Source: Elioraea tepida (lineage in GTDB: Bacteria; Pseudomonadota; Alphaproteobacteria; Acetobacterales; Acetobacteraceae). Taken from it: a stretch of 64,000 nt of DNA. Positions 814-21,994 of this stretch are shown one piece after another (within the stretch, counting starts at the first letter, position 1; each line of letters begins with the position of its first letter). The notes under the pieces are model-generated. The model was not told the DNA's origin and searched no databases. It was given only the letters and a program-made list of their open reading frames with translations. A program made the translations under genes and the position numbers. The DNA lies in contig NZ_CP076448.1 of NCBI RefSeq assembly GCF_019203965.1, positions 3,277,282-3,341,281 of the forward strand. The letters run 5' to 3'.

Positions 814-844
814 TCGGAACCGGGCCGGAACGGGCGCGCGCACG

Positions 845-3655: not shown

Positions 3656-3768
3656 GCGGCGCAGCGGGGCGGGGTGTGTGACGGGGCGGTGGGAGCGGGC
3701 CGAGCGCGGCGACCCCGCTCGTGTGATATAGGGGAGGCTTCCCGGCCCGGTCGCGGCGCGGCCGCGGG

Positions 3769-4959: not shown

Positions 4960-5053
4960 CACCTCCTTGCCGCGACTCTATTCTCCGCCGCCGCGGCGGC
5001 GTCCTTCCGGCGCCGCTCCTGCCACAGACACGCGCCAGGATCGACCTTTCGGG

Positions 5054-7378
5054 ATGATGCGCCTCAGCCTCGCTCTTGCGCTCGTCGCCGCGCTGCTCTG
5101 TTCCGCTGCCGCGGCCGTGCGCGCGCAGCCGCAGCCAGCGCAAGGCGCCTTCGCCCTGCCCGCGCCGGGCGGCATCGTGCGTGAGGTGCGCGTCGAAGGA
5201 ACGCAGCGGATCGAGCCGGCGACGGTCCAGTCCTACATGGTGATCCAGCCGGGCGATCGGTTCGACACCGAGAACATGGACCGCTCGATCAAGACCCTCT
5301 TCGCGACCGGCCTGTTCGCGGATGTGTGGCTGCGCCGCGAAGGCGATGCGCTGATCGTGACGGTGCGCGAGAACCCGATCGTCAACCGCGTGGCGTTCGA
5401 GGGCAACCGGGCGATCGGCGACGAGGTTCTGCGCGGCGAGATCCAGACCCGCCCGCGCTCCGTCTTCACGCGCACGCAGGCGCTCGCCGATCGCCAGCGC
5501 CTGCTCGACGTCTATGCACGCCGTGGCCGCTACGCCGCGTCGATCGAGCCCAAGGTCATCGAGCTCGACCAGAACCGGGTTGATGTCGTGTTCGAGATCG
5601 TCGAGGGGCCGAGCACGCTGATCCGCCGGATCAGCTTCGTCGGCAACAAGGCGTTCAGCGCCTCCGACCTCAAGGACGCGATCGCGAGCCGCGAGAGCGC
5701 CTGGTACCGGATCCTCTCCACGGCTGACCAGTACGACCCCGAACGCCTCGCCTTCGACCGCGAGCTTTTGCGCCGCTTCTACCTCAAGAACGGCTATGTC
5801 GATGCCGAGATCACCGGCGCGGTGGCCGAGCTCTCGCCTGACCGGACGAGCTTCTTCATCACCTTCACGATCGTCGAGGGCGAGCGCTATCGCGTCGGCT
5901 CGGTCGAGATCGACAGCCGGGTGCGCAACCTCGAGCCTGAGTCGCTACGGAGCGCCATCACCCTCCGCGGCGGCGACTGGTACGGCTCGGAGGCGGTCGA
6001 GGAGAGCGTGCGGGCGCTCGAGCTCGCGGTCCAGAACGCGGGCTACGCCTTCGTCGAGATCAGGCCGCGCTTCCAGCGCAATCGGGAGCAGCGCACGGTC
6101 GACGTCACCTTCGAGGTCGTCGAAGGGCCGCGCGTGTTCGTCGAGCGGATCGACATTGTCGGCAACCAGCGGACGATGGACAAGGTGATCCGACGCGAGT
6201 TCCGGATCGCCGAAGGCGACGCCTACAACGCCGCCCGTGTGCGCCGGTCACGCCAGCGGCTGATCGACCTCAACTACTTCTCCAAGGTCGAGGTGACCAC
6301 GACGGAGGGAAGCGCGCCGGATCGCGCGATCATCACGGCGGAGGTCGAGGAGAAGGCCACCGGCGAGCTTACCCTCGGCGGCGGCTACGGCACCGACATC
6401 GGCTTCCTCGGCACGGTGGGCTTGCGCGAGCGCAATCTGGCCGGAACCGGCCTCGAGGCGCGGGCCGAAGTCACGCTCGGCCAGTTGCGCAGCGCCCTCG
6501 ACCTCTCTTTGACCGACCCCTACTTCCTCGACCGTAACCTCGTCGCCGGCATCGACCTTTTTTACATCACGCGCGACAACCAGGAGATCGCCGGGTTCGA
6601 CGAGCAGCGTCGTGGCGGCGCGGTGCGAATCGGTTACGCCATCAACGAGCACCTGCGGCAGTCCTGGTCCTACTCCTACATCGAGCGCGAGATCACCAAC
6701 GTCAGCCCCTTGGCCTCGATCTACATCCGCGATCAGGCGGGGCGGAGCACCGTCTCGATGGTCTCGCAGATCCTCACCTACGACCGGCGTGACAGCCGGA
6801 TCGACCCGACGGAGGGCTATGTCGTTCGCTTCTCGACCGAGGTCTCGGGCCTCGGCGGCAATGTCGGCTTCTTCCGCCCGCGTCTTGAAGGCATCTACTA
6901 CCAGCCGCTCGCCTTCATCACAGGCAACCGACAATGGATCCTCTCGATTCGCGGGAGTGTCGGGTTTTTGTTCCAGTACGGCGAGGTGGAGCGGATCATC
7001 GACAACTTCTTCCTCGGCGGTGAGAACCTGCGCGGCTTCGAGATCGGCGGTGCGGGCCCGCGTGATCGCACAACGGGTGACGCGCTCGGGGGCAGGCGGA
7101 TCTGGACCCAGAGCACGGAAATCAGATACCCGTTTCCCTTCGTTCCCGACGAGCTCGGCATCCACGGCCGGGCCTTCGTCGATATCGGCAATCTCGAGGA
7201 CTCGGGGCTCACCGGCCCAGGCGTCGTCAACAGCGGCCCGCCGCGTCTCGGCGCGGGCTTTGGCGTCACCTGGCGGTCGCCCTTCGGGATCGTGAACGTC
7301 GACTTGACCCCGTTCGTGGTCAAGGAACCCTACGACAAGACGCAGATCTTCCGTTTCGGCTTCGGCACGAGGTTCTGA
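5054..7378 (+). CDS. bamA: Outer membrane protein assembly factor BamA
   Basis: Start set at MMRLSLALALVAALLCSAAAAVRAQ (signal peptide). POTRA repeats (EGTQRIEPATVQSYM...) and a C-terminal beta-barrel ending ...GFGTRF. Confidence 0.9.
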   Translation: MMRLSLALALVAALLCSAAAAVRAQPQPAQGAFALPAPGGIVREVRVEGTQRIEPATVQSYMVIQPGDRFDTENMDRSIKTLFATGLFADVWLRREGDALIVTVRENPIVNRVAFEGNRAIGDEVLRGEIQTRPRSVFTRTQALADRQRLLDVYARRGRYAASIEPKVIELDQNRVDVVFEIVEGPSTLIRRISFVGNKAFSASDLKDAIASRESAWYRILSTADQYDPERLAFDRELLRRFYLKNGYVDAEITGAVAELSPDRTSFFITFTIVEGERYRVGSVEIDSRVRNLEPESLRSAITLRGGDWYGSEAVEESVRALELAVQNAGYAFVEIRPRFQRNREQRTVDVTFEVVEGPRVFVERIDIVGNQRTMDKVIRREFRIAEGDAYNAARVRRSRQRLIDLNYFSKVEVTTTEGSAPDRAIITAEVEEKATGELTLGGGYGTDIGFLGTVGLRERNLAGTGLEARAEVTLGQLRSALDLSLTDPYFLDRNLVAGIDLFYITRDNQEIAGFDEQRRGGAVRIGYAINEHLRQSWSYSYIEREITNVSPLASIYIRDQAGRSTVSMVSQILTYDRRDSRIDPTEGYVVRFSTEVSGLGGNVGFFRPRLEGIYYQPLAFITGNRQWILSIRGSVGFLFQYGEVERIIDNFFLGGENLRGFEIGGAGPRDRTTGDALGGRRIWTQSTEIRYPFPFVPDELGIHGRAFVDIGNLEDSGLTGPGVVNSGPPRLGAGFGVTWRSPFGIVNVDLTPFVVKEPYDKTQIFRFGFGTRF

Positions 7379-8232
7379 TGAGAGGCCTTTCCATCCTTGC
7401 TGCATACGCCTCGCTTGCGGCCGCTCTCGCCCTGCCGGTGCCGCTTCTGCCCTCAGGCGCGCTCGCGCAGCAGGGCGGCCAGCAGCAATGGTTCGTGCCG
7501 GGCCAGCAGCCGCAGCAGCAGCGCCCGGCCCAGCAGCAGCGCCCCGCGGCGCAGCAGCCGCAGCAGCGCCCAGCTGCGCCGGCCCAGGGGCAGGTGGCGG
7601 GGCCGCAGGACCCGGGCGCGCCGCGCCTGCCGCCCATCCAGCGAAGCGAGCCGCCGCCGCCGGCGATCATCGGCGTGGTCGGCCTTCCGGAGGTGTTCGA
7701 GGCCTCCGTCGCTGCTCGGGGCGTGCGCCAGACGGTGCAGGAGAGGCTGGCGAGGTTGAACGAGGAGGCGCAGCGGGAGCAGGCGGCGTGGCGCGAAGCC
7801 CAGACCCAGCTCGCCAACCAGCGCACCAGCCTCACCCCTGAGCAGCTGCGCGAGCGCGAGCGCGAACTGCAGGAGCGCATCACCAACGGCCAGAGGATGC
7901 TGCGCGAGCGGAACGCGCAGATCCAGCAATCGGGCCAGCGCGCCCTTGCCGAGGTCGAGCGAGTCGCCCTCTATGTGATCGGGCAGGTCGCCGAGGCGCG
8001 CGGCCTCAACCTCGTGCTAAACCGGGGCGCCGTGGTGCTTGCGATCGACGAGCTCGACATCACCCGCGCTGTGGTCGAGCAGCTGAACCGTGCGCTCCCC
8101 TCGGTGCGGGTCGAGGGGGAGGGGGCGCCGACGCCGGCCGCCGCTCCTGCGGCCCAACAGGGGCAGGCCCAGCCGACACAGCGGCCCGCGCAGCAGCCGC
8201 AACAACAGCAACAGCCGCAGCGCCGGAACTGA
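7378..8232 (+). CDS. ompH: OmpH/Skp-family periplasmic chaperone with Gln/Pro-rich low-complexity tails
   Basis: Signal peptide, then a Q/P-rich stretch (QQGGQQQ...QQQRPAQQQRPAAQQPQQ), then an OmpH core (IIGVVGLPEVFEAS...coiled coil). TGATG overlap with bamA, the usual bamA-ompH-lpxD position. Confidence 0.8.
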   Translation: MRGLSILAAYASLAAALALPVPLLPSGALAQQGGQQQWFVPGQQPQQQRPAQQQRPAAQQPQQRPAAPAQGQVAGPQDPGAPRLPPIQRSEPPPPAIIGVVGLPEVFEASVAARGVRQTVQERLARLNEEAQREQAAWREAQTQLANQRTSLTPEQLRERERELQERITNGQRMLRERNAQIQQSGQRALAEVERVALYVIGQVAEARGLNLVLNRGAVVLAIDELDITRAVVEQLNRALPSVRVEGEGAPTPAAAPAAQQGQAQPTQRPAQQPQQQQQPQRRN

Positions 8233-8256
8233 CTGCCGCTTCGGTGCCGTAACGCC

Positions 8257-9321
8257 ATGCTGGGTGACCGGCGTTTCTTTTCCGGCCGCGGCCCTTTTCC
8301 GCTCGCCGCGGTGGCGCAGGCGGCGGGAGCGTCGCTGCCGCCGGGGGCGGACCCGGAGCGCCTCATCCGCCGCCCCGAACCTCTCGAGTCGGCCGGGCCT
8401 GACTGCGTGACCTTCCTCGAAAGCGCGCGCTATGCCTCCATGCTCGGGCAGAGCAGGGCCGGAGCTTGCCTCATGCGGCCCCAGGATTCCGCCAAAGCGC
8501 CCGAGGCCATGGTCGTGCTCGCCTGCGACCAGCCCATGCTCGCCTGGGCGCGGGTGCTGGCGCTGTTCTTCCCGGAAGGTTCTCCGGGGCCGGGCGGTGT
8601 CGCGCCAGGGGCAGTGGTGCACGAGGACGCGTTCCTCGCCGCCTCCGTCACCGTGTCGCCTGGGGCGGTGATCGGGCCGCGCGCGATGATCGGCGCGGGC
8701 ACCGTGATCGGCCCGAACGCGGTGATCGGAGAGGGCGTGGTGATCGGCGAGGCCTGTTCCATCGGCGCCGGTGCCTCCGTCTCCCACGCCATCCTCGGCG
8801 ACCGGGTCTCGATCGGGCCGGGGGCGCGGATCGGCCAGCCAGGGTTCGGCTTCGTTCCCGGGCCGCGTGGCTTCGTTCCCGTTCCGCAGCTCGGCCGCGT
8901 CCTGATCGGCGACGACGTCGACATCGGCGCGAACACGACGATCGACCGCGGCAGCGCCGGAGACACGATCATCGGCGCCGGCACGCGGATCGACAACCTC
9001 GTGCAGATCGCCCACAACTGCCGCCTCGGCCGGCTCTGTGCTCTGGCGGGGCAGGTCGGCCTCTCCGGCTCGACCATCCTCGAGGACGGGGTGATGATGG
9101 GCGGCCAGGCCGGGTCGGCCGGGCATCTGCGCGTCGGCGCCCGCGCGCGCATCGGCGCCCAGGCAGGGCTGATCGGTGACGTTCCTCCGGGCGCCGACTA
9201 TCTCGGCAGCCCCGCCATGCCGATCAGGGAGTTGTGGCGTGCCGTCGCGGCGCTGAAGCGCCTCGCTGCACGGCCGGAGCGCCCGGCGGAGCGTGGCGCG
9301 CCGGGCACGGACAAGGCATAA
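8257..9321 (+). CDS. lpxD: UDP-3-O-(3-hydroxyacyl)glucosamine N-acyltransferase
   Basis: 354-aa ORF with left-handed beta-helix hexapeptide repeats (IGPRAMIGAGTVIGPNAVIGEGVVIGEACSIGAG) and the LpxD N-terminal domain. Confidence 0.9.
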   Translation: MLGDRRFFSGRGPFPLAAVAQAAGASLPPGADPERLIRRPEPLESAGPDCVTFLESARYASMLGQSRAGACLMRPQDSAKAPEAMVVLACDQPMLAWARVLALFFPEGSPGPGGVAPGAVVHEDAFLAASVTVSPGAVIGPRAMIGAGTVIGPNAVIGEGVVIGEACSIGAGASVSHAILGDRVSIGPGARIGQPGFGFVPGPRGFVPVPQLGRVLIGDDVDIGANTTIDRGSAGDTIIGAGTRIDNLVQIAHNCRLGRLCALAGQVGLSGSTILEDGVMMGGQAGSAGHLRVGARARIGAQAGLIGDVPPGADYLGSPAMPIRELWRAVAALKRLAARPERPAERGAPGTDKA

Positions 9322-9362
9322 GGGCGAAACGACGGTCGGTGCGGGACGGAGCGCGACGGGCG

Positions 9363-9854
9363 ATGGAAGCGAGTGTGACCGGGACGGAGGCGCGGCCGGC
9401 CGGGCCGCGGCGCATCGAGGCGCTGGACATCCAGCGGATCATGCAGGCCATTCCCCACCGCTATCCCTTCCTCCTGATCGACCGTGTCGAGGACGTGGTG
9501 CCCGATGCCTCGGCGGTCGGCATCAAGAACGTCTCGATCAACGAGCAGTTCTTCCAGGGCCACTTTCCCGTCCATCCGGTGATGCCAGGCGTGCTGATCA
9601 TCGAGAGCATGGCCCAGACCGCTGCCGTGCTCGTGGTGGAGACGCTCGGGCCTGATGCGGCGGGCAAGGTGGTCTATTTCATGCTCATCGAGAATGCCAA
9701 GTTCCGCCGCCCCGTCGTCCCCGGCGACCAGATGCGGATTCACGTCCGCAAGGAGCGCAACCGGGGCAATGTCTGGAAGTTCTCCGCCGAGGCGAAGGTC
9801 GATGGCCAGGTCGTTGCGGAGGCGACCTATGCCGCGATGATCATGGACCGTTGA
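9363..9854 (+). CDS. fabZ: 3-hydroxyacyl-ACP dehydratase FabZ
   Basis: Start at MEASVTGT. Hotdog-fold motifs PHRYPFLLIDRV, NEQFFQGHFP and PGVLIIESMAQ. Confidence 0.9.
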   Translation: MEASVTGTEARPAGPRRIEALDIQRIMQAIPHRYPFLLIDRVEDVVPDASAVGIKNVSINEQFFQGHFPVHPVMPGVLIIESMAQTAAVLVVETLGPDAAGKVVYFMLIENAKFRRPVVPGDQMRIHVRKERNRGNVWKFSAEAKVDGQVVAEATYAAMIMDR

Positions 9855-10696
9855 GCATGCCCGAGATCCATCCCTCCGCGATCGTCGACCCTTCTGCGAG
9901 GCTCGGGGAGGGAGTGCGAATCGGGCCCTTCTGCATCGTCGGGCCGAACGTGACGCTTGGGGCCGGCACGACGCTCATCAGCCACGTCGTCGTCGAGGGC
10001 CACACGGAGCTTGGCGAGGGGGTGACGGTGCATCCCTTCGCGACCATCGGCCTTGCGCCACAGCATCTCGGCTATCGCGGCGAGCCGACCCGCACCGAGA
10101 TCGGCCCGCGCACGGTGATCCGCGAGCACGTCACCATCCACCGCGGCACGCCGATCGGCACCGGCGTGACCAAGGTGGGGGCCGATTGCCTCCTGATGTG
10201 CGTCACCCACATCGCCCATGACTGCGCGATCGGCGACCGGGTGATCTTCGCCAACAACGCCGTGCTCGGCGGCCATGTCACGGTCGGCGACAACGCCGTG
10301 ATCGGCGGCGCGGCGGCGATCCACCAATGGGTGAGGGTCGGCCGCCAGGCTATGGTCGGCGGCGCCTCCGGCGTGGAGGGGGACGTGATCCCGTTCGGGT
10401 CGGTGATCGGCAACCGGGCGCGGCTCGCAGGGCTCAACGTGATCGGGCTCAAGCGCCGCGGCTTCGACCGCGCCCAGATCCACCGCTTGCGCGCGGCGTT
10501 CAAGCTCCTGTTCCGGGACGAGCACGGCACGCTTGAGACCCGGCTCGCCGAAGCCCGGCAGCGCTTCGCGGGCGACCCGCTCGTCGAGGAGGTGCTCGCC
10601 TTCATGACCGCCGAGAGCCACCGCCCGCTCTGCCGCGCGGTTCCGCCGGACGATCTCGATCTTGGCGCCGAGGAGCCGGTCGAGTCTGCCGCCTGA
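9851..10696 (+). CDS. lpxA: Acyl-ACP--UDP-N-acetylglucosamine O-acyltransferase
   Basis: [34 protein letters not shown] hexapeptide repeats and a C-terminal LpxA helical domain. ATGA overlap with fabZ. Confidence 0.9.
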   Translation: [281 protein letters not shown]

Positions 10697-10703
10697 GCCG
10701 CTC

Positions 10704-11525
10704 ATGCCCGGCACGCTCGGCATCATCGCCGGCGGCGGGCCCATGCCCGCGCGTCTTGCCGCCGCCGTCGCCGCGACAGGCCGGCCCGTGTTCGTTCTCG
10801 GGCTCGAGGGCCATGTCGATCGCGCCGCGGTCGCCTCCTTCCCGCACCGCGTGGTTCGCCTCGGGGCCGCCGGCGAGGCGCTCGCCGCGTTGCGCGGCGC
10901 GGGCGTTGACGAGATCGTCCTGATCGGCCCGGTGAAGCGCCCCTCGCTACTGACGCTGATGCCGGATTCGGAAGGGGCGAAGATCCTCGCACGCATCGGC
11001 CGCGCCGCCTTCGCCGGCGACGACGGGCTTCTGGCGGCCGTGATCCGCGTTCTCGAGGAGGAAGGGTTCCGGGTGCGCGGCGTGCAGGAGGTGATGGCCG
11101 GCCTCACCGCTCCAGAGGGCGTGCTCGGCCGGGTCTCCCCGACACCGGAAGCGGAGGCTGACATACGCCGCGGTGTGGCGGTCGCGCGGGCGCTCGGCGC
11201 GGTCGATGTCGGCCAGGCCGTTGTGGTCCAGCAGGGGATCGTTCTTGCCGTCGAGGCGGCCGAGGGAACGGACGCACTGCTCGCGCGCTCGGCCTCGCTT
11301 CGCCGCGCGGGGCCGCCCGGCGTGCTTGTCAAGCTCGCCAAGCCCGGCCAGGAGGCAAGGGCCGATCTGCCCACCATCGGCGTGCGTACCGTCGAGGGAG
11401 CGGCGCGGGCAGGGCTTGCGGGGATTGCGATCGAGGCAGGGCTGACGCTCCTGCCCGAGCGCGAGGCGACGATCGCCGCGGCGGACGAGCTCGCCCTGTT
11501 CCTGGTCGCGCGGCGGTTCGGGTGA
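10704..11525 (+). CDS. lpxI: UDP-2,3-diacylglucosamine hydrolase LpxI (DUF1009 family)
   Basis: MPGTLGIIAGGGPMPARLA... glycine-rich N-terminus. It occupies the alphaproteobacterial lpxA-lpxI position. Confidence 0.8.
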   Translation: MPGTLGIIAGGGPMPARLAAAVAATGRPVFVLGLEGHVDRAAVASFPHRVVRLGAAGEALAALRGAGVDEIVLIGPVKRPSLLTLMPDSEGAKILARIGRAAFAGDDGLLAAVIRVLEEEGFRVRGVQEVMAGLTAPEGVLGRVSPTPEAEADIRRGVAVARALGAVDVGQAVVVQQGIVLAVEAAEGTDALLARSASLRRAGPPGVLVKLAKPGQEARADLPTIGVRTVEGAARAGLAGIAIEAGLTLLPEREATIAAADELALFLVARRFG

Positions 11526-11591
11526 GGCCTCGGCCGAACGTTCCGGGCAAGTGCTGACCCTTGGTTCCTGCTGGCGAGCCGTGCCTCGATC

Positions 11592-12812
11592 ATGGGCGGC
11601 CGCAACAGGAGTGTCATCCCCGACCAGGTTCCCAGACGGCAGGGGCCGCGCCAGGGTTCGCCGATAGCAGAAGACCTTGGCAGCGCCGATCTCGCCGTTG
11701 TTGGCGCAGGGATTGTCGGGCTTGCGTATGCTCTTGCGGCGGCGCGAGCAGGGTTGTCCGTCGTCGTGCTCGACCGCGAGGCGCGCGCCAACAGTGCGAG
11801 CGTGCGCAGTTTCGGTGTCGTCACGGTCACCGGTCAGGCGCCTGGGGAGACCTGGCGTCGCGCCCGCCGCTCCCGCGAGGTCTGGGCTGAGGTCGCGCCC
11901 CGCGCCGGCATCCCCATCCTGCAGCGCGGCCTCGTTCTCGCCTGCCGCCGGGAGGAGGCGCTTGCGGTAGCGGAACAGTTTGTCGCAGGACCGATGGGGG
12001 CCGGCTGCCGCCTGTTCTCGCCTCGCGAGATGGAGGACTTCGGAGTGTTCGCCCCGGGGCTCGCCGGCGGGCTCCACTCGCCGCACGAGCTCCGCGTCGA
12101 GCCGCGCGAGGCGCTGCCGCGCCTCGCCGCGTGGCTCGAGACGGAGCATGGCGTCCGGTTTCTGTGGCGGACGCATGTGCGCGAGGTTGCCCCGCCGGTG
12201 ATCGAGACGAGCGGGGGCAGGCTTCGCGCCGCGCATGCGGTCGTCTGCCCCGCAAACGATTTCCTGTCGCTGTTTCCGGAGGCGATCGAGCGGCACGGGC
12301 CGGTGCGCTGCAAGCTCTCGATGCTCCGCCTGCCCGATCCGGGCTGGCTGCTGCCGGCGTCCGTGATGAGCGATCTTGGCCTCGTGCGCTACCAGGGCTA
12401 TGCCGGGCTGCCGGGAGTTCCCATGCTCCGCGCCCGGCTCGAGGCGGAACAGGCGGACGCCCTCGCCGACGGCATTCACCTGATCGCGGTCCAGTCGGCG
12501 GACGGGTCGCTCGTGGTGGGCGACAGCCATCACTACGGCGACACGCCCGACCCGTTCATGGACGCGGCGGTGGAGGCGCGAATTCTCGAGGAGGCGCGCT
12601 CTGTGCTTCGCCTGCCCAGTGACGCACGGCCCGTCGAGCGCTGGATCGGCGAGTATCCATCCGCCCGCGTGCCGGCCTTCATCGCGGCACCCCTGCCAAC
12701 TGTCCGGGTGGTTATGGTGACCTCCGGCACAGGGATGAGCACCGCTTTCGCGCTCGCCGAAGAGGCGCTCGCCGACCTCGTCGGCCTGCCCGCGCCGGTG
12801 CTCGCTGCCTGA
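11592..12812 (+). CDS. FAD-dependent oxidoreductase (DAO family, TIGR03364-like) associated with phosphonate catabolism
   Basis: N-terminal dinucleotide fold DLAVVGAGIVGLAYALAAARAGLSVVVLDRE. Sits directly upstream of phnX, with no phnW in the locus. Confidence 0.75.
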   Translation: MGGRNRSVIPDQVPRRQGPRQGSPIAEDLGSADLAVVGAGIVGLAYALAAARAGLSVVVLDREARANSASVRSFGVVTVTGQAPGETWRRARRSREVWAEVAPRAGIPILQRGLVLACRREEALAVAEQFVAGPMGAGCRLFSPREMEDFGVFAPGLAGGLHSPHELRVEPREALPRLAAWLETEHGVRFLWRTHVREVAPPVIETSGGRLRAAHAVVCPANDFLSLFPEAIERHGPVRCKLSMLRLPDPGWLLPASVMSDLGLVRYQGYAGLPGVPMLRARLEAEQADALADGIHLIAVQSADGSLVVGDSHHYGDTPDPFMDAAVEARILEEARSVLRLPSDARPVERWIGEYPSARVPAFIAAPLPTVRVVMVTSGTGMSTAFALAEEALADLVGLPAPVLAA

Positions 12813-12815: not shown

Positions 12816-13637
12816 ATGCCACCGCCTCCCTATGCTGGGCCGATCCGCGCCGTCGTGCTCGACTGGGCGGGAACGGTCGTCGATCACGGCTCGCGCGCGC
12901 CGATGGCGGCCTTCGTCCGCGCCTTCGCCCGTTTCGGCGTCGAGATCACCATCGCCGATGCACGCGCGCCGATGGGATTGCCGAAGTGGGACCATATCTG
13001 GGCCGTCGGCACCGCGCCTGCCGTTGCCGCCACCTGGCGCGAGCGGCACGGGCGGGACTTCTCCCGCGCGGATGCGGATGCGATCTTCGCCGTGTTCGAG
13101 CCGATGACGGTCGCCGCGGTGCGCGATCACGCCGATCTCATCCCGGGCACCGTCGAGGCGGTGGCGGCGCTGCGGGCGAGGGGGATCCGCATCGGCAGCA
13201 CCACAGGCTACACGCGGCCGATCATGGAGGTGCTCGCGCCGCTCGCTGCGGCCGCCGGCTATGTGCCGGACACGCTCGTCTGCGCCGGCGATCTCGCCGC
13301 CGGGCGGCCGACACCGCTGATGATGTATCGCTGCTTCGCCGATCTCGGCGTGTGGCCTGCCGCGGCGGTGGTGAAGGTTGATGACACCGCGCCGGGGATC
13401 GCCGAGGGGCTTGCTGCCGGGAGCTGGACCGTCGGCGTCGCTCTGACAGGGAACGCCGCGGGCCTGTCGGCCGCGGAACTTGCCGCGCTCGGGCCGCAGG
13501 AGCGCTCGGCCCTGCGCGCGCGTGCCACGGCCGAGCTCGAAGCGGCAGGCGCACACCTTGTGATCGACAGCATCGCCGATCTTCCCGCCGCGGTGGATGC
13601 GCTCTCGGCCCGGCTGCTCCGCGGCGAGCAGCCCTGA
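12816..13637 (+). CDS. phnX: Phosphonoacetaldehyde hydrolase (phosphonatase)
   Basis: HAD motif I VVLDWAGTVVD, catalytic-Lys context APMGLPK, and IGSTTGYTR and AGRPTPLMM motifs matching bona fide PhnX. Confidence 0.85.
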   Translation: MPPPPYAGPIRAVVLDWAGTVVDHGSRAPMAAFVRAFARFGVEITIADARAPMGLPKWDHIWAVGTAPAVAATWRERHGRDFSRADADAIFAVFEPMTVAAVRDHADLIPGTVEAVAALRARGIRIGSTTGYTRPIMEVLAPLAAAAGYVPDTLVCAGDLAAGRPTPLMMYRCFADLGVWPAAAVVKVDDTAPGIAEGLAAGSWTVGVALTGNAAGLSAAELAALGPQERSALRARATAELEAAGAHLVIDSIADLPAAVDALSARLLRGEQP

Positions 13638-13755: not shown

Positions 13756-14781
13756 ATGCTTCGTCGCACGCTTCTTGCCGCCGCAACGCTCGCGCTCGTC
13801 ATGCTGGCCGCCGACGCCTCCGGCCAGCGCACGCGGCTTACCGTCTACACCGCGCTTGAGAACGAGCAGCTTCCCGTGTTCAAGCAGGCGGCGGAGGCGG
13901 CGATCCCCGGGCTCGAGATCGTCTGGGTGCGCGACAGCACAGGCGTGATCACGACCCGCTTGCTCGCCGAGAAGGACAACCCGCGCGCGGATGCGATCTG
14001 GGGCCTCTCCGTCTTCAGCCTCAAGCGTCTCGAGGCGGATGACATGCTCCTTCCCTACACCCCCGCGGGCGCCGAGGCGCTGAGGCCGCAGTTCCGGTCC
14101 GACCGCTCGCCGATGACCTGGGTGGGCTTGGACGCATTCGTTTCTGCCGTGTGCTTCAACACCGTGGTGGCGCGGCAGCGCAACCTGCCCACCCCGCGCA
14201 CCTGGGCCGACCTGCTGAACCCTGTCTATCGCGGGCTGATCGCGATGCCGAACCCGGCCTCCTCCGGCACCGGCCTGCTCACCGTCGCCGGCTGGCTCGG
14301 CACGCAGGGAGAGGAGCAGGCCTGGGCCTTCATGACCCGCCTGCACGAGAACATCGCCGTCTACACCCACAGCGGCTCGGCACCCTGCAACAACGCCGCG
14401 CGCGGCGAATACGCGATCGGCCTCTCCTTCGACATGCGAGCGGTGACGCTGAAGAACCAGGGAGCGCCGATCGAGATCATCGTGCCTACCGACGGTGTGG
14501 GTTTCGACCTCGAGGGGGCGGCCATTCTGCGCGGCACGCGCCAGGAGGCGATGGCGAAGAGGCTGATGGACTTCGCGGTGAGCCGCCCCGCGATGGAGCT
14601 CTACGGTCGCTACTACGCGCTGCTCGGCCTTCCGGGCGTGACGCCGTCGGTGCAGGGCTATCCGCCCGAGTTCGCCGAGCGCCTTGCCAAGGTCGATTTC
14701 GCTACTGTGGCGGCGAACCGTGACCACATCCTCGCCGAGTGGGCGCGTCGGTTCGACGCCAAGTCGGCACCGCGGAACTGA
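13756..14781 (+). CDS. 2-aminoethylphosphonate ABC transporter, periplasmic substrate-binding protein
   Basis: Start chosen at MLRRTLLAAATLALVMLAADASGQ (signal peptide). Iron/AEP-type SBP fold. Genomic context with phnX and the ABC ATPase/permease. Confidence 0.75.
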   Translation: MLRRTLLAAATLALVMLAADASGQRTRLTVYTALENEQLPVFKQAAEAAIPGLEIVWVRDSTGVITTRLLAEKDNPRADAIWGLSVFSLKRLEADDMLLPYTPAGAEALRPQFRSDRSPMTWVGLDAFVSAVCFNTVVARQRNLPTPRTWADLLNPVYRGLIAMPNPASSGTGLLTVAGWLGTQGEEQAWAFMTRLHENIAVYTHSGSAPCNNAARGEYAIGLSFDMRAVTLKNQGAPIEIIVPTDGVGFDLEGAAILRGTRQEAMAKRLMDFAVSRPAMELYGRYYALLGLPGVTPSVQGYPPEFAERLAKVDFATVAANRDHILAEWARRFDAKSAPRN

Positions 14782-14816
14782 GGTGCGGCAACGACTCCGG
14801 GGCGCGTGACGCGGCC

Positions 14817-15959
14817 ATGGACGCATCCGCGGAGGCATCGGCGAAGGCGGGCGCTTCGGTGAGCGTTTCGCGCCCTGAAGCCTCCGCCGATGACTCCTAT
14901 CTCGCCATTCGGCGCCTCACGAAACGGTTCGGCACCTTCACCGCTCTCGACGACATTTCGCTCACGATCCGGCGCGGCGAGTTCGTCTGCTTCCTCGGGC
15001 CTTCGGGCTGCGGCAAGACGACGCTCCTGCGTGCCATCGCCGGGCTCGAGCCGCAGGACGAGGGAACGATCGTCCAGGACGGGCGCGACATCTCGGCGCT
15101 GCCGCCATCGCGCCGGGATTTCGGGATCGTGTTCCAGTCCTACGCCCTCTTCCCCAACATGACCGTGCTCGCCAATGTCGGCTATGGCCTCGCCGCACAG
15201 GGAAAGAGCCGGGCTTTTGTGGAGAACCGGGCGCGCGAGCTCCTGTCGCTTGTGGGTCTTGCCGACCAGTGGTGGAAGTATCCGGCGCAGCTCTCGGGAG
15301 GGCAGCAGCAGCGCGTCGCGCTCGCGCGGGCGCTTGCGATCAGCCCCGGCCTGCTTCTGCTCGACGAGCCGCTCTCCGCGCTCGATGCGCTCGTGCGTGT
15401 CCACCTCCGCGCCGAGATCAAGGCGCTGCAGCGTCGCCTCGGCATCACCACGGTGATGGTCACGCACGACCAGGAGGAAGCACTCTCGATCGCCGACAGG
15501 ATCGTGGTGATGAACCGCGGCCGTATCGAGCAGGTCGGCACGCCTGATGCGGTCTACCGGCGGCCGGAGAGCCTGTTCGTCGCGGGCTTCGTCGGGCGGA
15601 TGAACAGCCTGCCCGGAACGGTGGTCGACTCCTCGACGGTCGCGATCGGCGCGGTTCGGCTCGCGGCGGAGGCCGCTGCGCGCTTCCCCTCCGGAGCGGC
15701 GGTGCAGGTCTGCATCCGGCCGGAAGACGTGCAGCTTGACCGTCCGGGACTTGCGGGGACGCGCCTTGCTGCCACCGTCCGCGGCCTCGAGTATCTCGGC
15801 TCGATCACGCGAATCCCCCTCGAGGCGGCCGGCCTGCCGCTGACGGCAGAGCTGCCCGATACGGCGTTGCGTTCGCTCGCGCCCGAGCCCGGCGGGTCGC
15901 TCACGGTCGTGCTGTCGCCGGATCGGGTGCTGCTCTTCCCCCGCCCGGGCGAAGCCTGA
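14817..15959 (+). CDS. 2-aminoethylphosphonate ABC transporter, ATP-binding protein
   Basis: Walker A GPSGCGKTT, signature LSGGQQQRVALARAL, Walker B LLLDEPLSALD, plus a C-terminal TOBE-like domain. Confidence 0.8.
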   Translation: MDASAEASAKAGASVSVSRPEASADDSYLAIRRLTKRFGTFTALDDISLTIRRGEFVCFLGPSGCGKTTLLRAIAGLEPQDEGTIVQDGRDISALPPSRRDFGIVFQSYALFPNMTVLANVGYGLAAQGKSRAFVENRARELLSLVGLADQWWKYPAQLSGGQQQRVALARALAISPGLLLLDEPLSALDALVRVHLRAEIKALQRRLGITTVMVTHDQEEALSIADRIVVMNRGRIEQVGTPDAVYRRPESLFVAGFVGRMNSLPGTVVDSSTVAIGAVRLAAEAAARFPSGAAVQVCIRPEDVQLDRPGLAGTRLAATVRGLEYLGSITRIPLEAAGLPLTAELPDTALRSLAPEPGGSLTVVLSPDRVLLFPRPGEA

Positions 15960-15964
15960 CCACG

Positions 15965-17671
15965 ATGCTGCCTTTGGCGGGAACGCTCGAGGCACCGGTC
16001 CGGGTCCGGCCGCAGCCCTCGGCCGACGACCACCTGCTCGCCGGCATCGTGCTGCTCGCGGGGCTGTTCCTCGCACTGGCGCTTGCCGCCCCGCTCGGCG
16101 CCCTGCTGCTCAAAAGCTTCCAGGACGACCGGGGCGGCTTCGTAGGTCTTGCGAACTATCTTCGCTACTTCGAAACGCCGGCCCTGATTGGCTCGCTTTG
16201 GAACAGCCTCTGGGTCGCCGCCGTCTCGACGGCGATCGTGCTGCCGCTCGCTTTCGGCTACGCCTATGCGCTCACGCGAAGCGCGATCCCGCTCAAAGCC
16301 CTGTTCCGCGCCATCGCCCTGATCCCGATCCTCGCCCCGTCGCTTCTGCCGGCGCTTGCGCTGATCTACCTCTTCGGCAACCAGGGCATGCTCAAGCCGC
16401 TCCTGATGGGTGGGACGATCTACGGGCCCGCCGGGATCATCGTCTCGCAGGTGTTCTACTGCTTTCCCCCGGCGGTGCTGATTCTCGCGACCGCTCTCTC
16501 GGGGGTAGATGCGCGCCTGTACGAAGCGGCCGAGGCGCTGAGGGCCTCGCGGATCCGCGTGCTCCGAACCGTCACCCTGCCGGCGGCGCGCTACGGCATG
16601 GTCTCGGCCGGGTTCGTGGTGTTCACGCTCGTGATCACCGATTTCGGCATCCCGAAGGTGATCGGCGGCTCGTTCAACGTGCTTGCAACCGATGTCTACA
16701 AGCAGGTGGTCGGGCAGCAGAACTTCCAGATGGGGGCCGTGGTCGGCATGGTGCTGCTCGCCCCCGCCGTGCTCGCCTTCGCGGCCGACCAGTGGGCGCA
16801 GCGTCGGCAGACCGCCACCGTCTCGGCCCGTGCGGTGCCCTATGTGCCGAAGCCGCGGCCGGGGCGTGACCTCCCGCTGCTTATCTTCTGCACCATCCTC
16901 TCGCTTCTCATGGTGGGGCTGATCGGGGTCGCCGCCTGGGGAAGCCTGATCACCTTCTGGCCTTGGAACCTTTCGCTCACGCTTGCCAATTACGACTTCG
17001 CCCGGTTCGACAGCGCCGGCTGGGGAAGTTGGTGGACCAGCGTGCGCATGGCGGCTTGGACGGCGGCGATCGGCGCGCCGCTCGTCTTCGTTTTCGCCTA
17101 CGGGATGGAACGGGCGAAGCGTCTGCCGGCGCTTGTGGGCCTCGTCCGCTTCGCGGCCACCGTTCCGCTTGCCGTGCCCGGGCTCGTGCTCGGAATCGCC
17201 TACATCCTCTTCTTCAACGCTCCCGAAAACCCGCTCGGGTTCCTCTACGGCACGCTCGCGATCCTTGTCCTCAACTCTCTCGTGCACTTCTACACGGTCG
17301 GGCATCTCGCCTCCGTAACGGCGCTGAAGCAGCTCGACCCCGAGTTCGAGAGCGTGGCCGCGAGCCTGAAGGTGCCGCTGTGGCGGACCTTCCTGGCGGT
17401 GACCCTGCCGATCTCCCTGCCCGTGCTGCTCGACGTCGCGATCTATCTCTTCGTCAACACGATGACCACGGTCTCGGCCGTGGTGTTCCTCTACGCTCCC
17501 GACATCAAGCCTGCGGCGGTCGCTCTCGTGCAGATGGACGAGGCGGGCCAGGCCTCGGCCGCGGCGGCGATGGCGATGACGATCCTTGCGACGTCGGCCG
17601 CCGTGAAGGGCCTGCATCTCGCGGCGGATCGTGCGCTCGCGCACCGAACCGAGGCGTGGCGCCGGGCCTGA
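15965..17671 (+). CDS. 2-aminoethylphosphonate ABC transporter permease (fused two-domain)
   Basis: 568-aa polytopic ORF containing two ABC-permease EAA-like loops. Immediately follows the ATPase. Confidence 0.8.
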   Translation: MLPLAGTLEAPVRVRPQPSADDHLLAGIVLLAGLFLALALAAPLGALLLKSFQDDRGGFVGLANYLRYFETPALIGSLWNSLWVAAVSTAIVLPLAFGYAYALTRSAIPLKALFRAIALIPILAPSLLPALALIYLFGNQGMLKPLLMGGTIYGPAGIIVSQVFYCFPPAVLILATALSGVDARLYEAAEALRASRIRVLRTVTLPAARYGMVSAGFVVFTLVITDFGIPKVIGGSFNVLATDVYKQVVGQQNFQMGAVVGMVLLAPAVLAFAADQWAQRRQTATVSARAVPYVPKPRPGRDLPLLIFCTILSLLMVGLIGVAAWGSLITFWPWNLSLTLANYDFARFDSAGWGSWWTSVRMAAWTAAIGAPLVFVFAYGMERAKRLPALVGLVRFAATVPLAVPGLVLGIAYILFFNAPENPLGFLYGTLAILVLNSLVHFYTVGHLASVTALKQLDPEFESVAASLKVPLWRTFLAVTLPISLPVLLDVAIYLFVNTMTTVSAVVFLYAPDIKPAAVALVQMDEAGQASAAAAMAMTILATSAAVKGLHLAADRALAHRTEAWRRA

Positions 17672-17674: not shown

Positions 17675-18397
17675 TCAGAACTGGCCGCGCTGGAGGCGGA
17701 ACACGTCGGGGTTCAGCGGATCGGCCACGTAGGCGAGGCGGAGGCCGAAGGGGCGCGGCGCCGTCGGCGCCGCGTTCGCGGGCGGAGCGGCCGGCAGGAG
17801 CTGCAGCTGCACCATCCGCCCCTGCTCGTCGAGGCCGCGGAAGATGAGCGTTGAGCCGTCCGCGAGCAGAACCCCGCCTGCGACCGACCCTGCGCGCCAC
17901 GCAAGGGCGGCGAAGTGCTTCCTCAGCGCCTCCGCCGCGTTGATCAGCGCGTCCTGCCGGACCGTCGGGTCGGCGGGAGGGCCCCAGAGGATGGTGACCT
18001 GGATCAGCCGCTTCGTCTGGTGCCCGAGCGTGTAGGACACGCGCGCCGTGCCGGTGTCGGGGATCAGGTTCGGCACCGTGACGGTCAGCACCTGCGTGCG
18101 CTCAACCGGTGTCTGTTCGGAGACGATCCGTTCCGCTGCCTGCGGAAAATCGCGCCTTATGGCGGCACGCACCTCCGCCTCCGTCATGCCGAAGCGTGCG
18201 GAGCGGAACCCCTCGACAGCTGCGGCCTCCAGGGGGGGTGACTGTGCCGGCGGTGCGGCCGGAGAAGGGGGCGCGGGCTGCGTCTGCTGCGCCGCGGCTC
18301 GCGGCTGTGCCTGTGCGTCCGCCTGCGGGCGAGCAGATTGTGCAGCGGCAACGCCGGCTACCAGCAGGGCGAGGAGGACGGGAACGGAATGGCGCAT
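17675..18397 (-). CDS. Hypothetical exported protein (signal peptide plus Ala/Gln/Pro-rich linker)
   Basis: Minus-strand ORF starting at the ATG at 18397: MRHSVPVLLALLVAGVAAAQS..., then a PAQ-rich low-complexity stretch and a globular C-terminus. The upstream part of the 499-aa track ORF is antisense shadow of vgrG. Confidence 0.55.
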   Translation of the reverse strand: MRHSVPVLLALLVAGVAAAQSARPQADAQAQPRAAAQQTQPAPPSPAAPPAQSPPLEAAAVEGFRSARFGMTEAEVRAAIRRDFPQAAERIVSEQTPVERTQVLTVTVPNLIPDTGTARVSYTLGHQTKRLIQVTILWGPPADPTVRQDALINAAEALRKHFAALAWRAGSVAGGVLLADGSTLIFRGLDEQGRMVQLQLLPAAPPANAAPTAPRPFGLRLAYVADPLNPDVFRLQRGQF

Positions 18398-18484: not shown

Positions 18485-20484
18485 ATGCGCGGGCCGATGC
18501 TGCCGATCATCCAGACCGAGAAACGGACGATGGGCCTCTCGTCCGGGCCCTTTCCGCCCGACTCGCTCATCCCCGAGCGCGTCACCGGCAGCGAATCGCT
18601 CTGCGGTCTGTTCTCCTACGACATCGATTTCCTGACCGACCAGACGGAGCTGAAACCCGCCGAGCTGCTCGGCAAGAAGCTCGGCCTCGAACTCGGCAAG
18701 GGCACGCCCGATCGGGCCTTCATCAACGGCCACGTGGTGCGGCTTTCGCTCGGGGACTATCTCGGCGGCAACTACGGCATGGCCTATCGCCGGATCTCCT
18801 GCCGGATCGTTCCGTGGTTCTGGTTCCTCGACCATACGACCGACTGCCGCGTCTTCCAGAACCGCACCGTCCAGGAGATTCTCGAGACGCTGTTCGGCGA
18901 CGCCGGCTTCACCGACGACAAGTTCTTGCTCCGGGGCAGCCTCGCGCCGCGCACCTACGTGCTCCAGTACAACGAGACCGACTACGCCTTCGCCTGCCGG
19001 CTGATGGCCGAGGAGGGCCTCGTGTGGTGGGTGGCCTCGACCGCCGAGACGCATACGCCGATCATCACCAACCACAATGACGGTCTGAGGGCCTCGGGCG
19101 CCCAGCCCTTGAAGCTGCCGCCGCGCGAGGCGTCGCAGGTGCGCAACAGCTTCGACAGCCTTCGAGAGACCCACGTCTGGAAGCCCGGCAAGGTTGCGGT
19201 CAGCGACTCAGAGTTCCGAGCGATCTCGACCGATCTGACGACAGAGAAATCCTCGCTGCTCGGCCTGCCGCTCGCCGACAAGTTCGAGATCTTCGTCTGG
19301 CCCGGGCGCTTCCCCACAAAGGGAAAGGGCGACAGCCCGGCGGCCCGCAGCGACGGCGAGCCGCTCGCGACACACCTCGTCGAGGCGCTCGAGTCGGAAG
19401 CGACACGGCTCGAATCGCGACGGATTCCCACGCGCCGATGCTCGGCGTGCCGATCGAGATCCTCGACAACGCCCAAGCCTCAAGCGGAACGCCCTACCTG
19501 ATCGAGCGGCTGAGCCGAACGATGGCGGATGAGATCCATCTCAATGCGCGCGCCATTCCCGTCTGTCGCACCACGGTGAGCGCCTTCCCGGCCGGCACGA
19601 CCTATCGGATGCGGCCCGTTCCCGAACGGCCGAAGCTCCCGAACCTGATGCTCGGCAGGGTCGTCGGGCCGAAGGGAGAGGAGATCCATGTCGACGAGTA
19701 TGGCAGGGTGAAGGTCCAGTTCCTGTGGGACCGTCTCGGCGAAGGCGACGAAAACGCCTCGTGCTGGATGCGGCTCTCCCAGGCCTGGGCCGGCAGCGGC
19801 TTCGGGATCATGGCGCTGCCGCGGATCGGCATGGAGGTGATCGTCGGCTTCCTAGACGACGACCCCGATCACCCGGTGGTGCTCGGCTGCCTGCACAACA
19901 ACGAGAACAAGGTGCCCGTCGCGCTTCCCGAGAACAAGACGCAGACGGGGATCGTGACCAGGTCCTCGACGGGCGGGGGAAGCTCCGACTACAACGCGCT
20001 TCTGTTCGAGCACAAGGCAGGGTCGGAGAAGGTAACGTTCCAGGCACAGAAGGACTACGAGCGCCTTGTCAAGAACAACGAGAAGGTGACGATCAAGGCG
20101 AATCGCACGCTGCTGATCGAAGGCAAACAGAAATATGATGTCAAAGGCGACTATGACCTGACGGTGCAGCAGGGCAACCACAAGGTCGAGATCAGCAAGG
20201 GCAAGTTCGACACCAAGGTCGGCATGGGGAACATGTCGGTCAAGGTGTCGATGGGCAACCTCTCGACGAAGGTCAACCTCGGCAAGATCGACAGCGAGGC
20301 GATGCAGTCGATCGAGTTCAAGGTGGGCACCAGCTCGGTCAAGATCGACCAGATGGGCGTAACCATCAAGGGCATGATGATCAAGATCGAAGGCACCGTC
20401 ATGCTCGAGGCCAAGGGCCTGATGACGAAGGTGAGCGGCGACGGGATGATGATGCTGAAGGGCGGCATCATCATGATCAATTGA
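18485..20484 (+). pseudogene. vgrG: Type VI secretion spike protein VgrG, interrupted by a frameshift near 19420-19440
   Basis: N-terminal part (18485-19501 frame) has gp27-like VgrG motifs (LFSYDIDFLT, RAFINGHVVRLS, DYAFACRLMAEEGLVWWV). The remainder (19438-20484 frame) has the gp5/beta-helix part (GRVKVQFLWDRLGEGDENASCWMR, VLGCLHN, repetitive KV..G C-terminus). The two halves are in different frames. Confidence 0.8.
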
Positions 20485-21079: not shown

Positions 21080-21091
21080 GGAGGCAGCCCC

Positions 21092-21385: not shown

Positions 21386-21389
21386 GGCG

Positions 21390-21971: not shown

Positions 21972-21994
21972 ACGGCGGGAGGAAGCCGGCCGGA

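What the first reader, a model, noticed from the sequence alone, without database searches (positions are those of the whole stretch)
11526..11600. Conserved bamA-ompH-lpxD-fabZ-lpxA-lpxI run is broken immediately after lpxI; lpxB is not in its canonical place
In alphaproteobacteria lpxI is normally followed by lpxB (often then gltA). Here lpxI (ending 11525) is followed after 66 nt by a FAD oxidoreductase/phnX/AEP-transporter locus and then about 50 kb of accessory, decaying genes. This marks a rearrangement or insertion boundary in an otherwise highly syntenic essential cluster. lpxB must reside elsewhere.
Basis: partly seen in the sequence, partly recalled or inferred. Interest (0 to 1): 0.55.

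Follow-up and report, generated by a model that had tools for sequence, protein, structure and literature searches.

The report
Old lpxB relocation, recent small deletion
The missing lpxB after lpxI is an old gene-order trait shared by this bacterium's whole order, and the only recent change at these coordinates is the loss of one small neighbouring gene, so the finding is real but ordinary.

Summary
lpxI ends at 11525 and 66 nt later a pbfD(TIGR03364)-phnX-phnS2T2U2 aminoethylphosphonate locus begins. No LpxB-like sequence exists anywhere in the 64 kb.

The recent-island interpretation does not hold.
- In 29 Acetobacterales-type loci, lpxB is absent within 10 kb of lpxI.
- In 20 loci from other lineages (nearly all other alphaproteobacteria), lpxB follows lpxI directly.
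- gloA follows lpxB in Stellaceae-like genomes but follows lpxI directly in most Acetobacterales, so lpxB left this slot in an early ancestor.
- Three Elioraea-clade relatives (E. rosea and two metagenome genomes, 77-84% nt identity) show lpxI-FAA hydrolase-pbfD-phnX-phnS2T2U2-...-vgrG, collinear with the window.

The only lineage-specific event here is an 879-nt deletion of the FAA-hydrolase gene, replaced by 47 unrelated nt. The old pbfD start ATG is now ATA, an upstream TAG is now CAG, and the ORF now starts at an ATG formed at the deletion junction.

The junction is identical in six independent metagenome contigs. There is no tRNA, integrase, flanking repeat or composition step. Downstream, at least 15 accessory genes are truly broken.

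lpxB itself was not located. Interest is low.

The parts
238..10696 (+). Conserved essential cluster: frr (238-813), uppS (845-1597), cdsA (1578-2462), dxr (2453-3655), rseP (3796-4959), bamA (5054-7378), ompH-like (7378-8232), lpxD (8257-9321), fabZ (9363-9854), lpxA (9857-10696)
   Evidence: NCBIfam hits above cutoffs. OmpH by Pfam. Gene calls match those on the same-species contigs. Collinear with about 40 alphaproteobacterial loci.
10704..11525 (+). lpxI (UDP-2,3-diacylglucosamine diphosphatase), the last gene of the conserved cluster
   Evidence: PF17930 LpxI_N + PF06230 LpxI_C. NF047836 at 247 bits, below its equivalog cutoff of 400. 79% identical to E. rosea LpxI and 89% to L062. dN/dS 0.14.
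11526..11545 (+). 20 nt retained from the ancestral lpxI-FAA hydrolase spacer
   Evidence: blastn: the window aligns to L062 up to window 11545 / L062 9050.
11546..11592 (+). Deletion scar: 47 nt with no detectable similarity, standing where relatives carry an 879-nt FAA-hydrolase-family gene
   Evidence: Alignment gap: window 11546-11592 versus L062 9051-9929. Local alignment score 18 versus shuffle mean 17.4. FAA hydrolase is present in L007, L062 and L063. The junction is identical in L001-L006.
11592..12812 (+). pbfD-type TIGR03364 FAD-dependent amine oxidoreductase with a remodelled 5' end. The new ATG at 11592-11594 is one filler A plus the TG of the old FAA-hydrolase TGA stop. The ancestral start codon is now ATA at 11664-11666. 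The ancestral in-frame TAG is now CAG.
   Evidence: TIGR03364 at 384.6 bits. Alignment A1 and the L062 sequence. Homologues are 370-382 aa against 406 aa here. No other in-frame ATG/GTG/TTG lies before the GxGxxG motif.
12816..13637 (+). phnX, phosphonoacetaldehyde hydrolase
   Evidence: TIGR01422 at 339 bits, cutoff 220.
13756..17671 (+). phnS2 (13756-14781), phnT2 (14817-15959), phnU2 (15965-17671): putative 2-aminoethylphosphonate ABC transporter
   Evidence: TIGR03261 at 411.7, TIGR03265 at 488.6 and TIGR03262 at 748.1 bits, all above cutoffs. 78-85% aa identity to E. rosea.
17675..18187 (-). Conserved hypothetical gene that continues the synteny with Elioraea relatives
   Evidence: 81% identity to L007 11621-12121. 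89% identity to part of the L062 260-aa ORF. No Pfam or NCBIfam family.
18485..20484 (+). vgrG pseudogene with one frameshift near 19312-19414; intact in relatives
   Evidence: tblastn with L062 VgrG (689 aa): residues 29-333 in frame 2 and 300-689 in frame 1. The gene is split into two ORFs on all same-species contigs. Phage_GPD and VgrG domains.
20492..22076 (+). DUF6931 (20492-21079), PAAR (21092-21385) and a truncated FHA/TagH-like gene (21390-21971, with similarity continuing to 22076): type VI secretion remnants collinear with L062
   Evidence: Pfam hits. L062 context. The FHA gene is 193 aa here; the L062 gene product is 523 aa, of which 455 aa lie within the fetched locus, and similarity ends at residue 228.

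Best explanation
The break after lpxI has three layers of different age.

(1) Ancient. In the ancestor of Acetobacterales, lpxB left its slot between lpxI and gloA. This is inferred from its distribution across loci.

(2) Intermediate. In the Elioraea clade, the DNA after lpxI became FAA hydrolase-pbfD-phnX-phnS2T2U2-...-vgrG. This is shown by collinearity with three relatives.

(3) Recent and specific to this species. An 879-nt deletion removed the FAA-hydrolase gene and left 47 unrelated nt, so the AEP-utilisation operon now sits 66 nt after lpxI. This is shown by alignment.

The deletion came with a remodelled pbfD 5' end. The ancestral start ATG became ATA and an upstream in-frame TAG became CAG. 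The ORF now reaches an ATG assembled at the deletion junction, which would add 24 N-terminal residues. The sequence changes are shown; use of the new start is inferred.

The locus itself is a PbfD/PhnX route. PbfD oxidises 2-aminoethylphosphonate (or its N-methyl form) to phosphonoacetaldehyde, PhnX releases phosphate, and an ABC importer brings in the substrate. This function is inferred from family membership and published enzymology.

lpxB is presumed to lie elsewhere in the genome, because lpxD, fabZ, lpxA and lpxI are intact and under purifying selection.
For: Distribution of lpxB:
- lpxB follows lpxI in 20 of 20 outgroup loci (nearly all alphaproteobacterial; one is a Rokubacteria MAG). 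It is absent within 10 kb in all 29 Acetobacterales-type loci. Two further canonical contexts were seen.
- gloA (TIGR00068 at 154-161 bits) follows lpxB in 5 Stellaceae-like loci and follows lpxI directly in 22 Acetobacterales loci.

Elioraea clade:
- E. rosea, L062 and L063 carry lpxI-FAAH-pbfD-phnX-phnS2T2U2 and then vgrG.
- blastn places the only gap at window 11546-11592 versus L062 9051-9929.
- The filler has no similarity to FAAH.
- lpx protein identities support the topology ((window, L062), (L063, E. rosea)). FAAH is 82-83% identical among the three relatives, like its neighbours, so it was inherited vertically and lost here.

Start codon: the start and stop codon changes are visible.

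Not an artefact or island:
- The junction is identical in six independently assembled contigs at 99.6-99.7% nt identity.
- There is no tRNA, no terminator or meaningful flanking repeats, and no composition step.

Function and selection:
- dN/dS is 0.14-0.24 for the AEP genes and 0.07-0.18 for the lpx cluster.
- PbfD/PhnX enzymology is in PMC10590968.
Against: - lpxB of this organism was not found, so 'relocated' rather than 'lost' is inferred, not shown.
- Taxon labels of many loci without lpxB are only 'uncultured Alphaproteobacteria'. They are grouped with Acetobacterales by LpxI identity and gloA adjacency, not by a phylogeny.
- Polarity of the FAAH indel rests on parsimony with four genomes.
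- No ribosome-binding site is evident before the new ATG.
- pbfD (30 vs 7) and phnX (23 vs 7) show excess lineage-specific amino-acid changes, so pbfD may be decaying rather than re-started.
Confidence: 0.85

Rival explanations
1. A recent genomic island (the AEP locus plus about 50 kb of accessory genes) inserted between lpxI and lpxB in this genome and pushed lpxB away.
For: The conserved cluster ends abruptly at lpxI. Downstream genes are accessory and many are broken. PbfD-type clusters are reported to move horizontally (PMC10590968).
Against: - The same adjacency and at least 10 kb of collinearity exist in three relatives at 77-84% nt identity.
- dS of the AEP genes (0.49-0.64) matches that of the core genes (0.38-0.77), so they have co-diverged.
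- There is no lpxB in the 52 kb downstream or the 10 kb beyond the window's 5' end.
- There is no tRNA, integrase, transposase or flanking repeat.
- GC and tetranucleotide profiles are flat.
- lpxB is already missing from this slot across Acetobacterales.
Confidence: 0.03
2. The FAA-hydrolase gene was inserted in the relatives rather than deleted here, so the window shows the ancestral lpxI-pbfD junction.
For: Only four genomes were compared. No outgroup carries the AEP locus at this site, so polarity is by parsimony alone.
Against: - The window groups with L062 for lpxD, fabZ, lpxA and lpxI (81-94% vs 66-89%). FAAH is on both sides of that split (L062, and L063 plus E. rosea).
- FAAH divergence (82-83%) equals that of its neighbours.
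- The window has derived changes exactly at the junction (ATG to ATA, TAG to CAG, 47 nt of unalignable filler), whereas the three relatives agree with each other.
Confidence: 0.07
3. Assembly misjoin or sequencing artefact at 11526-11600.
For: None specific. It was considered because the window has many frameshifted genes.
Against: The 175 nt spanning the junction are identical in six contigs assembled independently from different samples. The frameshifts (for example vgrG) are also reproduced on those contigs.
Confidence: 0.01
4. lpxB has been lost from this decaying genome, or from the whole order, and the disaccharide step is missing or done by another enzyme.
For: No LpxB was found in any sequence held for this species (about 74 kb) or in any Acetobacterales-type locus. 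The lineage accumulates pseudogenes.
Against: - lpxD, fabZ, lpxA, lpxI and bamA are intact with dN/dS of 0.08-0.18, which makes little sense without the next pathway step.
- Only a small fraction of the genome was visible.
- From my own recollection (not tested here), public annotation lists lipid-A-disaccharide synthase in Acetobacteraceae genomes.
Confidence: 0.03

Closest known systems
Canonical alphaproteobacterial cluster bamA-ompH-lpxD-fabZ-lpxA-lpxI-lpxB(-gltA), as in Caenispirillum salinarum L036 and Stellaceae L033/L035. By my recollection, it is also the Caulobacter locus where LpxI was first described.
   Same: Same gene order and orientation from frr to lpxI.
   Different: lpxB and the convergent gltA are missing. 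An AEP catabolic and transport operon follows instead.
Typical Acetobacterales arrangement ...lpxA-lpxI-gloA (Acidocella aquatica L011, A. aromatica L012, Roseococcus L042 and others)
   Same: lpxB is absent from the slot after lpxI. The cluster upstream is the same.
   Different: gloA does not follow lpxI here or in the Elioraea relatives, and no gloA is found in the window.
Elioraea rosea PF-30 contig NZ_VFAC01000035.1 (L007), with metagenome genomes L062 and L063
   Same: lpxI followed by pbfD-phnX-phnS2T2U2, then a small conserved ORF and vgrG. Protein identity to E. rosea is 62-88% across these genes, 77-85% for the pbfD/phn genes.
   Different: The relatives have a 290-293 aa FAA-hydrolase-family gene between lpxI and pbfD. 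E. rosea and L063 also have an Asp/Glu racemase gene after phnU2. Their vgrG genes are intact in L062 and L063; the E. rosea locus ends inside vgrG.
PbfD-PhnX route of 2-aminoethylphosphonate degradation (Zangelmi et al. 2023, PMC10590968)
   Same: A TIGR03364/PbfD-type oxidoreductase is clustered with phnX, without phnW, beside an AEP-type ABC transporter.
   Different: No activity was tested. The N-terminus here is remodelled, with a 24-residue extension and loss of the ancestral start.

Membership tests
Canonical lpxD-fabZ-lpxA-lpxI-lpxB cluster | lpxD, fabZ, lpxA and lpxI contiguous and co-oriented | tested here: met
   coordinates 8257-11525.
Canonical lpxD-fabZ-lpxA-lpxI-lpxB cluster | lpxB immediately downstream of lpxI | tested here: not met
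   No LpxB in the window by tblastn or HMM (best E 1.2).
LpxI (UDP-2,3-diacylglucosamine diphosphatase) | LpxI_N and LpxI_C domains over the full length | tested here: met
   PF17930 + PF06230 on the identical protein.
LpxI (UDP-2,3-diacylglucosamine diphosphatase) | Score above the NCBIfam equivalog cutoff (NF047836, 400 bits) | tested here: not met
   247.4 bits. The match is full length (profile positions 2-270 of 275), so this reads as a divergent member, not a different family.
Genomic island / integrative element | Flanking tRNA gene or integrase/transposase | tested here: not met
   0 tRNAs. No integrase or transposase Pfam hit among about 70 ORFs.
Genomic island / integrative element | Flanking direct repeats | tested here: not met
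   Only low-identity chance repeats in 10.5-18.5 kb.
Genomic island / integrative element | Compositional deviation from the core | tested here: not met
   GC is 0.70-0.72 on both sides of 11.5 kb. Tetranucleotide correlation to the core is 0.95-0.98 for all segments. These are raw frequencies, so the test is weak.
Genomic island / integrative element | Absent from close relatives at the same site | tested here: not met
   Present and collinear in L007, L062 and L063.
PbfD / TIGR03364 FAD-dependent aminophosphonate oxidoreductase | Score above the TIGR03364 cutoff | tested here: met
   384.6 bits, cutoff 285.1.
PbfD / TIGR03364 FAD-dependent aminophosphonate oxidoreductase | Clustered with phnX, typically without phnW | tested here: met
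   phnX is 3 nt downstream. No aminotransferase-family hit among the called ORFs.
PbfD / TIGR03364 FAD-dependent aminophosphonate oxidoreductase | Oxidises AEP or N-methyl-AEP to phosphonoacetaldehyde | not testable with these tools
   Enzymology is known only for homologues (PMC10590968).
PhnX and PhnS2T2U2 | Scores above the equivalog cutoffs | tested here: met
   TIGR01422 339 vs 220; TIGR03261 411.7 vs 392.75; TIGR03265 488.6 vs 457.7; TIGR03262 748.1 vs 593.25.

The most novel reading that the evidence does not exclude
This pseudogene-accumulating Elioraea-like lineage (or Acetobacterales as a whole) has no canonical GT19 LpxB. Lipid A assembly would then stop at lipid X or use a non-homologous disaccharide synthase. 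My data show only that lpxB is absent from every stretch I could read, not that it exists elsewhere.
Probability: 0.02. Interest if true: 0.75.

Novelty: new member of a known kind. Interest (0 to 1): 0.18.

Why it matters
It matters little on its own. It shows that the 'universal' lpxI-lpxB adjacency of alphaproteobacteria is not universal: one whole order (Acetobacterales) lacks it. A missing lpxB at this site should therefore not be read as an island boundary or an annotation error in these genomes.

The local event is a clean example of a small gene deletion that forced a neighbouring gene onto a new start codon. It happened in a lineage that is visibly shedding accessory functions, including type VI secretion and transporters. 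That genome-decay signal in a free-living-type genus may interest people who study these populations.

Tried and rejected
Attempts to locate lpxB of this organism, all unsuccessful:
- A protein search with the LpxB of L057 returned only Stellaceae-like hits at 59% identity or more.
- A search of 50%-identity cluster representatives returned 150 unnamed clusters.
- Names were available for only 1 of 10 clusters checked, and that one was Zavarzinia.
- Two high-GC representatives, looked up on their contigs, were in canonical lpxI-lpxB contexts.
- tblastn of the plasmid collection found no Acetobacteraceae record.
- Paper searches for lpxB in Acetobacteraceae gave nothing useful.

Attempts to extend beyond the 3' end of the window: four exact-protein look-ups found no record, so the 10 kb past position 64000 was not seen.

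Other checks that found nothing:
- Rfam scan of the whole window: no hits.
- Promoter and terminator scan of 10.6-12 kb: no + strand promoter and no terminator.
- FAA-hydrolase remnant in the 47-nt filler: none above chance.

The third large protein search was left unused, because no query likely to rank an Elioraea LpxB in the top 120 could be built.

Full report
**1. What is at the coordinates**

The window is about 70% G+C. Third-position GC and family searches give a + strand run:
- frr (238-813), uppS, cdsA, dxr, rseP, bamA (5054-7378)
- an OmpH-domain protein (7378-8232)
- lpxD (8257-9321), fabZ, lpxA (9857-10696) and lpxI (10704-11525)

This is supported.

After the lpxI stop there are 66 nt. 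An ORF then starts at ATG 11592. It is a TIGR03364 FAD-dependent oxidoreductase (384.6 bits, cutoff 285.1). It is followed by phnX, phnS2, phnT2 and phnU2, all above their NCBIfam cutoffs.

No LpxB-like sequence is present in the window. tblastn with the Caenispirillum LpxB found nothing at E<1e-5. An HMM built from about 125 LpxB sequences scored at best E = 1.2 on the six-frame translation.

**2. Not an artefact**

The identical LpxI protein occurs on contigs from many ENA metagenome assemblies. Six of these (L001-L006) are 99.6-99.7% identical to window 704-21526. They carry exactly the same 175 nt across the junction.

The 10 kb upstream of the window on these contigs holds proS, lolCDE-type genes, dnaE, rpsB, tsf and pyrH. 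There is no lpxB there.

**3. The lpxI/lpxB break is old**

A scan of one genome per species with LpxI returned 53 loci with up to 10 kb of flank.

- lpxB lies 12-714 nt after lpxI in all 20 loci from Stellaceae, Caenispirillum, Rhodospirillaceae, Hyphomicrobiales, Rhodobacterales and a Rokubacteria MAG. gltA follows on the opposite strand in 7 of them.
- None of the 29 loci of the Acetobacterales type with at least 2 kb of downstream sequence has lpxB within 10 kb. The named records in this group are Elioraea, Acidocella, Rhodopila, Roseococcus, Falsiroseomonas, Acetobacteraceae and 'Asaia' MAGs; the rest are unnamed MAGs grouped with them.
- Two further LpxB proteins looked up on their contigs were again in the canonical context.

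A small gene gives the polarity. This is lactoylglutathione lyase gloA (TIGR00068 at 154-161 bits). It follows lpxB in five Stellaceae-like loci. It follows lpxI directly in 22 Acetobacterales loci. The simplest reading is that lpxB was removed from between lpxI and gloA early in Acetobacterales.

A subset of loci (Rhodopila type) has also detached lpxI from lpxA. This neighbourhood has therefore been reshuffled more than once in the order.

**4. The lpxI-AEP adjacency is shared within the Elioraea clade**

- E. rosea (L007; LpxI 79% identical) has lpxI, a 292-aa FAA-hydrolase-family gene, pbfD, phnX, phnS2T2U2, an Asp/Glu racemase, a small conserved ORF and then vgrG.
- A search with the window's oxidoreductase, followed by contig look-ups, found two more genomes with the same order. 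L062 is 82-84% identical in nucleotides to the window. L063 lies on a 2.75-Mb contig.
- A more distant 'Elioraea sp.' (L064) carries the AEP locus in a different context.

**5. What is specific to this lineage at 11526-11600**

blastn against L062 is continuous except for one place. Window 11546-11592 (47 nt) stands opposite L062 9051-9929 (879 nt), which is exactly the FAA-hydrolase ORF. The 47 nt have no similarity to that gene (score 18, shuffle mean 17.4).

Protein identities for lpxD, fabZ, lpxA and lpxI group the window with L062, and L063 with E. rosea. FAAH is 82-83% identical among the three relatives, the same as its neighbours. The gene was therefore inherited vertically and deleted on the window's branch.

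The alignment also shows three changes at the pbfD 5' end:
- The ancestral pbfD start ATG is ATA in the window (11664-11666).
- An in-frame TAG just upstream in all three relatives is CAG in the window.
- The only canonical in-frame start before the GxGxxG motif is ATG 11592. It is made of one filler base plus the TG of the former FAA-hydrolase TGA stop.

Whether this ATG is used is inferred, not shown. No Shine-Dalgarno-like sequence precedes it. No terminator follows lpxI.

**6. Island tests**

- No tRNA or tmRNA gene in the window.
- No Rfam hit.
- No integrase or transposase domain among about 70 ORFs.
- Only chance-level repeats around the locus.
- GC is 0.70-0.72 on both sides of the junction.
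- Tetranucleotide correlation with the core is 0.95-0.98 for every segment. This test uses raw frequencies and is weak.
- Synonymous divergence from L062 is the same for AEP genes (0.49-0.64) and cluster genes (0.38-0.77).

**7. What the neighbouring locus does**

TIGR03364 proteins of the PbfD group oxidise 2-aminoethylphosphonate and N-methyl-AEP to phosphonoacetaldehyde, using O2. In clusters that lack phnW they form a PbfD-PhnX pathway (PMC10590968). The arrangement here fits that pathway, with a PhnS2T2U2 importer.

dN/dS against L062 is 0.14-0.24, so the genes have been under purifying selection overall.

A relative-rate test with L063 as outgroup shows that the window lineage evolves faster than L062:
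- core genes: 111 versus 70 unique changes, p = 0.002
- AEP genes: 147 versus 73, p = 6e-7
- pbfD: 30 versus 7
- phnX: 23 versus 7

. Some recent relaxation of selection on pbfD and phnX is therefore possible.

**8. The downstream region**

- vgrG carries one frameshift. It is intact (655-689 aa) in L062 and L063.
- The FHA gene is truncated, and a Ser/Thr kinase survives only as a fragment.
- By Pfam profile coverage, at least 15 genes between 18 and 64 kb are split or truncated. These include branched-chain ABC transporter parts, UPF0261, a PEP-hydrolase-like gene, a CoxL-type dehydrogenase, CoxE, an amidohydrolase, a gluconolactonase, an MFS transporter, an AMP-binding enzyme and a periplasmic binding protein.
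- None of the 16 genes before 17.7 kb is broken.
- The vgrG frameshift is reproduced on all six same-species metagenome contigs, so at least that lesion is real.
- A polysaccharide-synthesis cluster at 43.7-56 kb looks intact.

**9. What was not achieved**

lpxB of this organism was not located. The sequence beyond the 3' end of the window could not be fetched. That lpxB lies elsewhere is inferred from the intact, constrained lpxD, fabZ, lpxA and lpxI genes.

**10. Verdict**

The order lost the lpxI-lpxB adjacency long ago. The AEP locus has been lpxI's neighbourhood since before the Elioraea species diverged. The only recent event is a 0.88-kb deletion of one gene, with a knock-on change of the pbfD start. 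There is no sign of an island.

Noticed in passing
window 16856-16912 (phnU2); L001-L006: All six same-species metagenome contigs lack one G that the window has near 16912. In five of them this splits phnU2 into 318 + 252 aa. In L001 an additional 17-bp deletion (window 16856-16872) restores the frame (562 aa). This suggests a frameshift followed by a compensating deletion within the population.
   Followed up: partly
window 18485-23448: A type VI secretion remnant: vgrG with one frameshift, intact DUF6931 and PAAR genes, a truncated FHA/TagH-like gene and a 146-aa Ser/Thr kinase fragment on the minus strand. The vgrG genes are intact in relatives L062 and L063.
   Followed up: partly
window 18000-64000: At least 15 split or truncated genes by Pfam profile coverage, against none in 1-17.7 kb. 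Examples are a PEP_hydrolase split at 30194-31027, a CoxL-type gene split at 35541-38279, an ABC ATPase split at 57632-58456 and an AMP-binding enzyme frameshifted at 58453-60398. The lineage also shows a faster amino-acid substitution rate than its sister L062. Together these point to relaxed selection or early genome reduction.
   Followed up: partly
window 10704-12812: lpxI and the pbfD ORF are in the same reading frame, separated only by the lpxI TGA and 22 sense codons. Read-through of that single stop would give an LpxI-PbfD fusion. This is probably incidental.
   Followed up: no
proteins P0151, P0171, P0176, P0241, P0245, P0246 and others: Single polypeptides of about 650-690 aa that carry LpxI_N, LpxI_C and LpxB domains (LpxI-LpxB fusions). 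They recur among Stellaceae-like relatives, the sister group that keeps the two genes adjacent.
   Followed up: no
L019, L022, L040 (also L008, L032, L047): In Rhodopila-type Acetobacterales, lpxI is detached from lpxD-fabZ-lpxA. In L019, L022 and L040 it sits next to a divergently oriented gltA, with gloA still downstream where sequence is available. This is a second, independent rearrangement around lpxI.
   Followed up: no
window 17617-17674 vs L007 10887-11609 and L063 17005-17727: An Asp/Glu racemase gene lies between phnU2 and the small conserved ORF in E. rosea and L063. It is absent from both the window and L062. This is another clean gene-sized indel in the same neighbourhood.
   Followed up: partly
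window 43714-56037: An apparently intact polysaccharide-synthesis cluster: two large DUF6311 membrane proteins, a Bac_transf priming transferase, a Polysacc_synt flippase, two GT4 and two GT2 glycosyltransferases, a DUF218 protein and a PMT_2-like protein.
   Followed up: no
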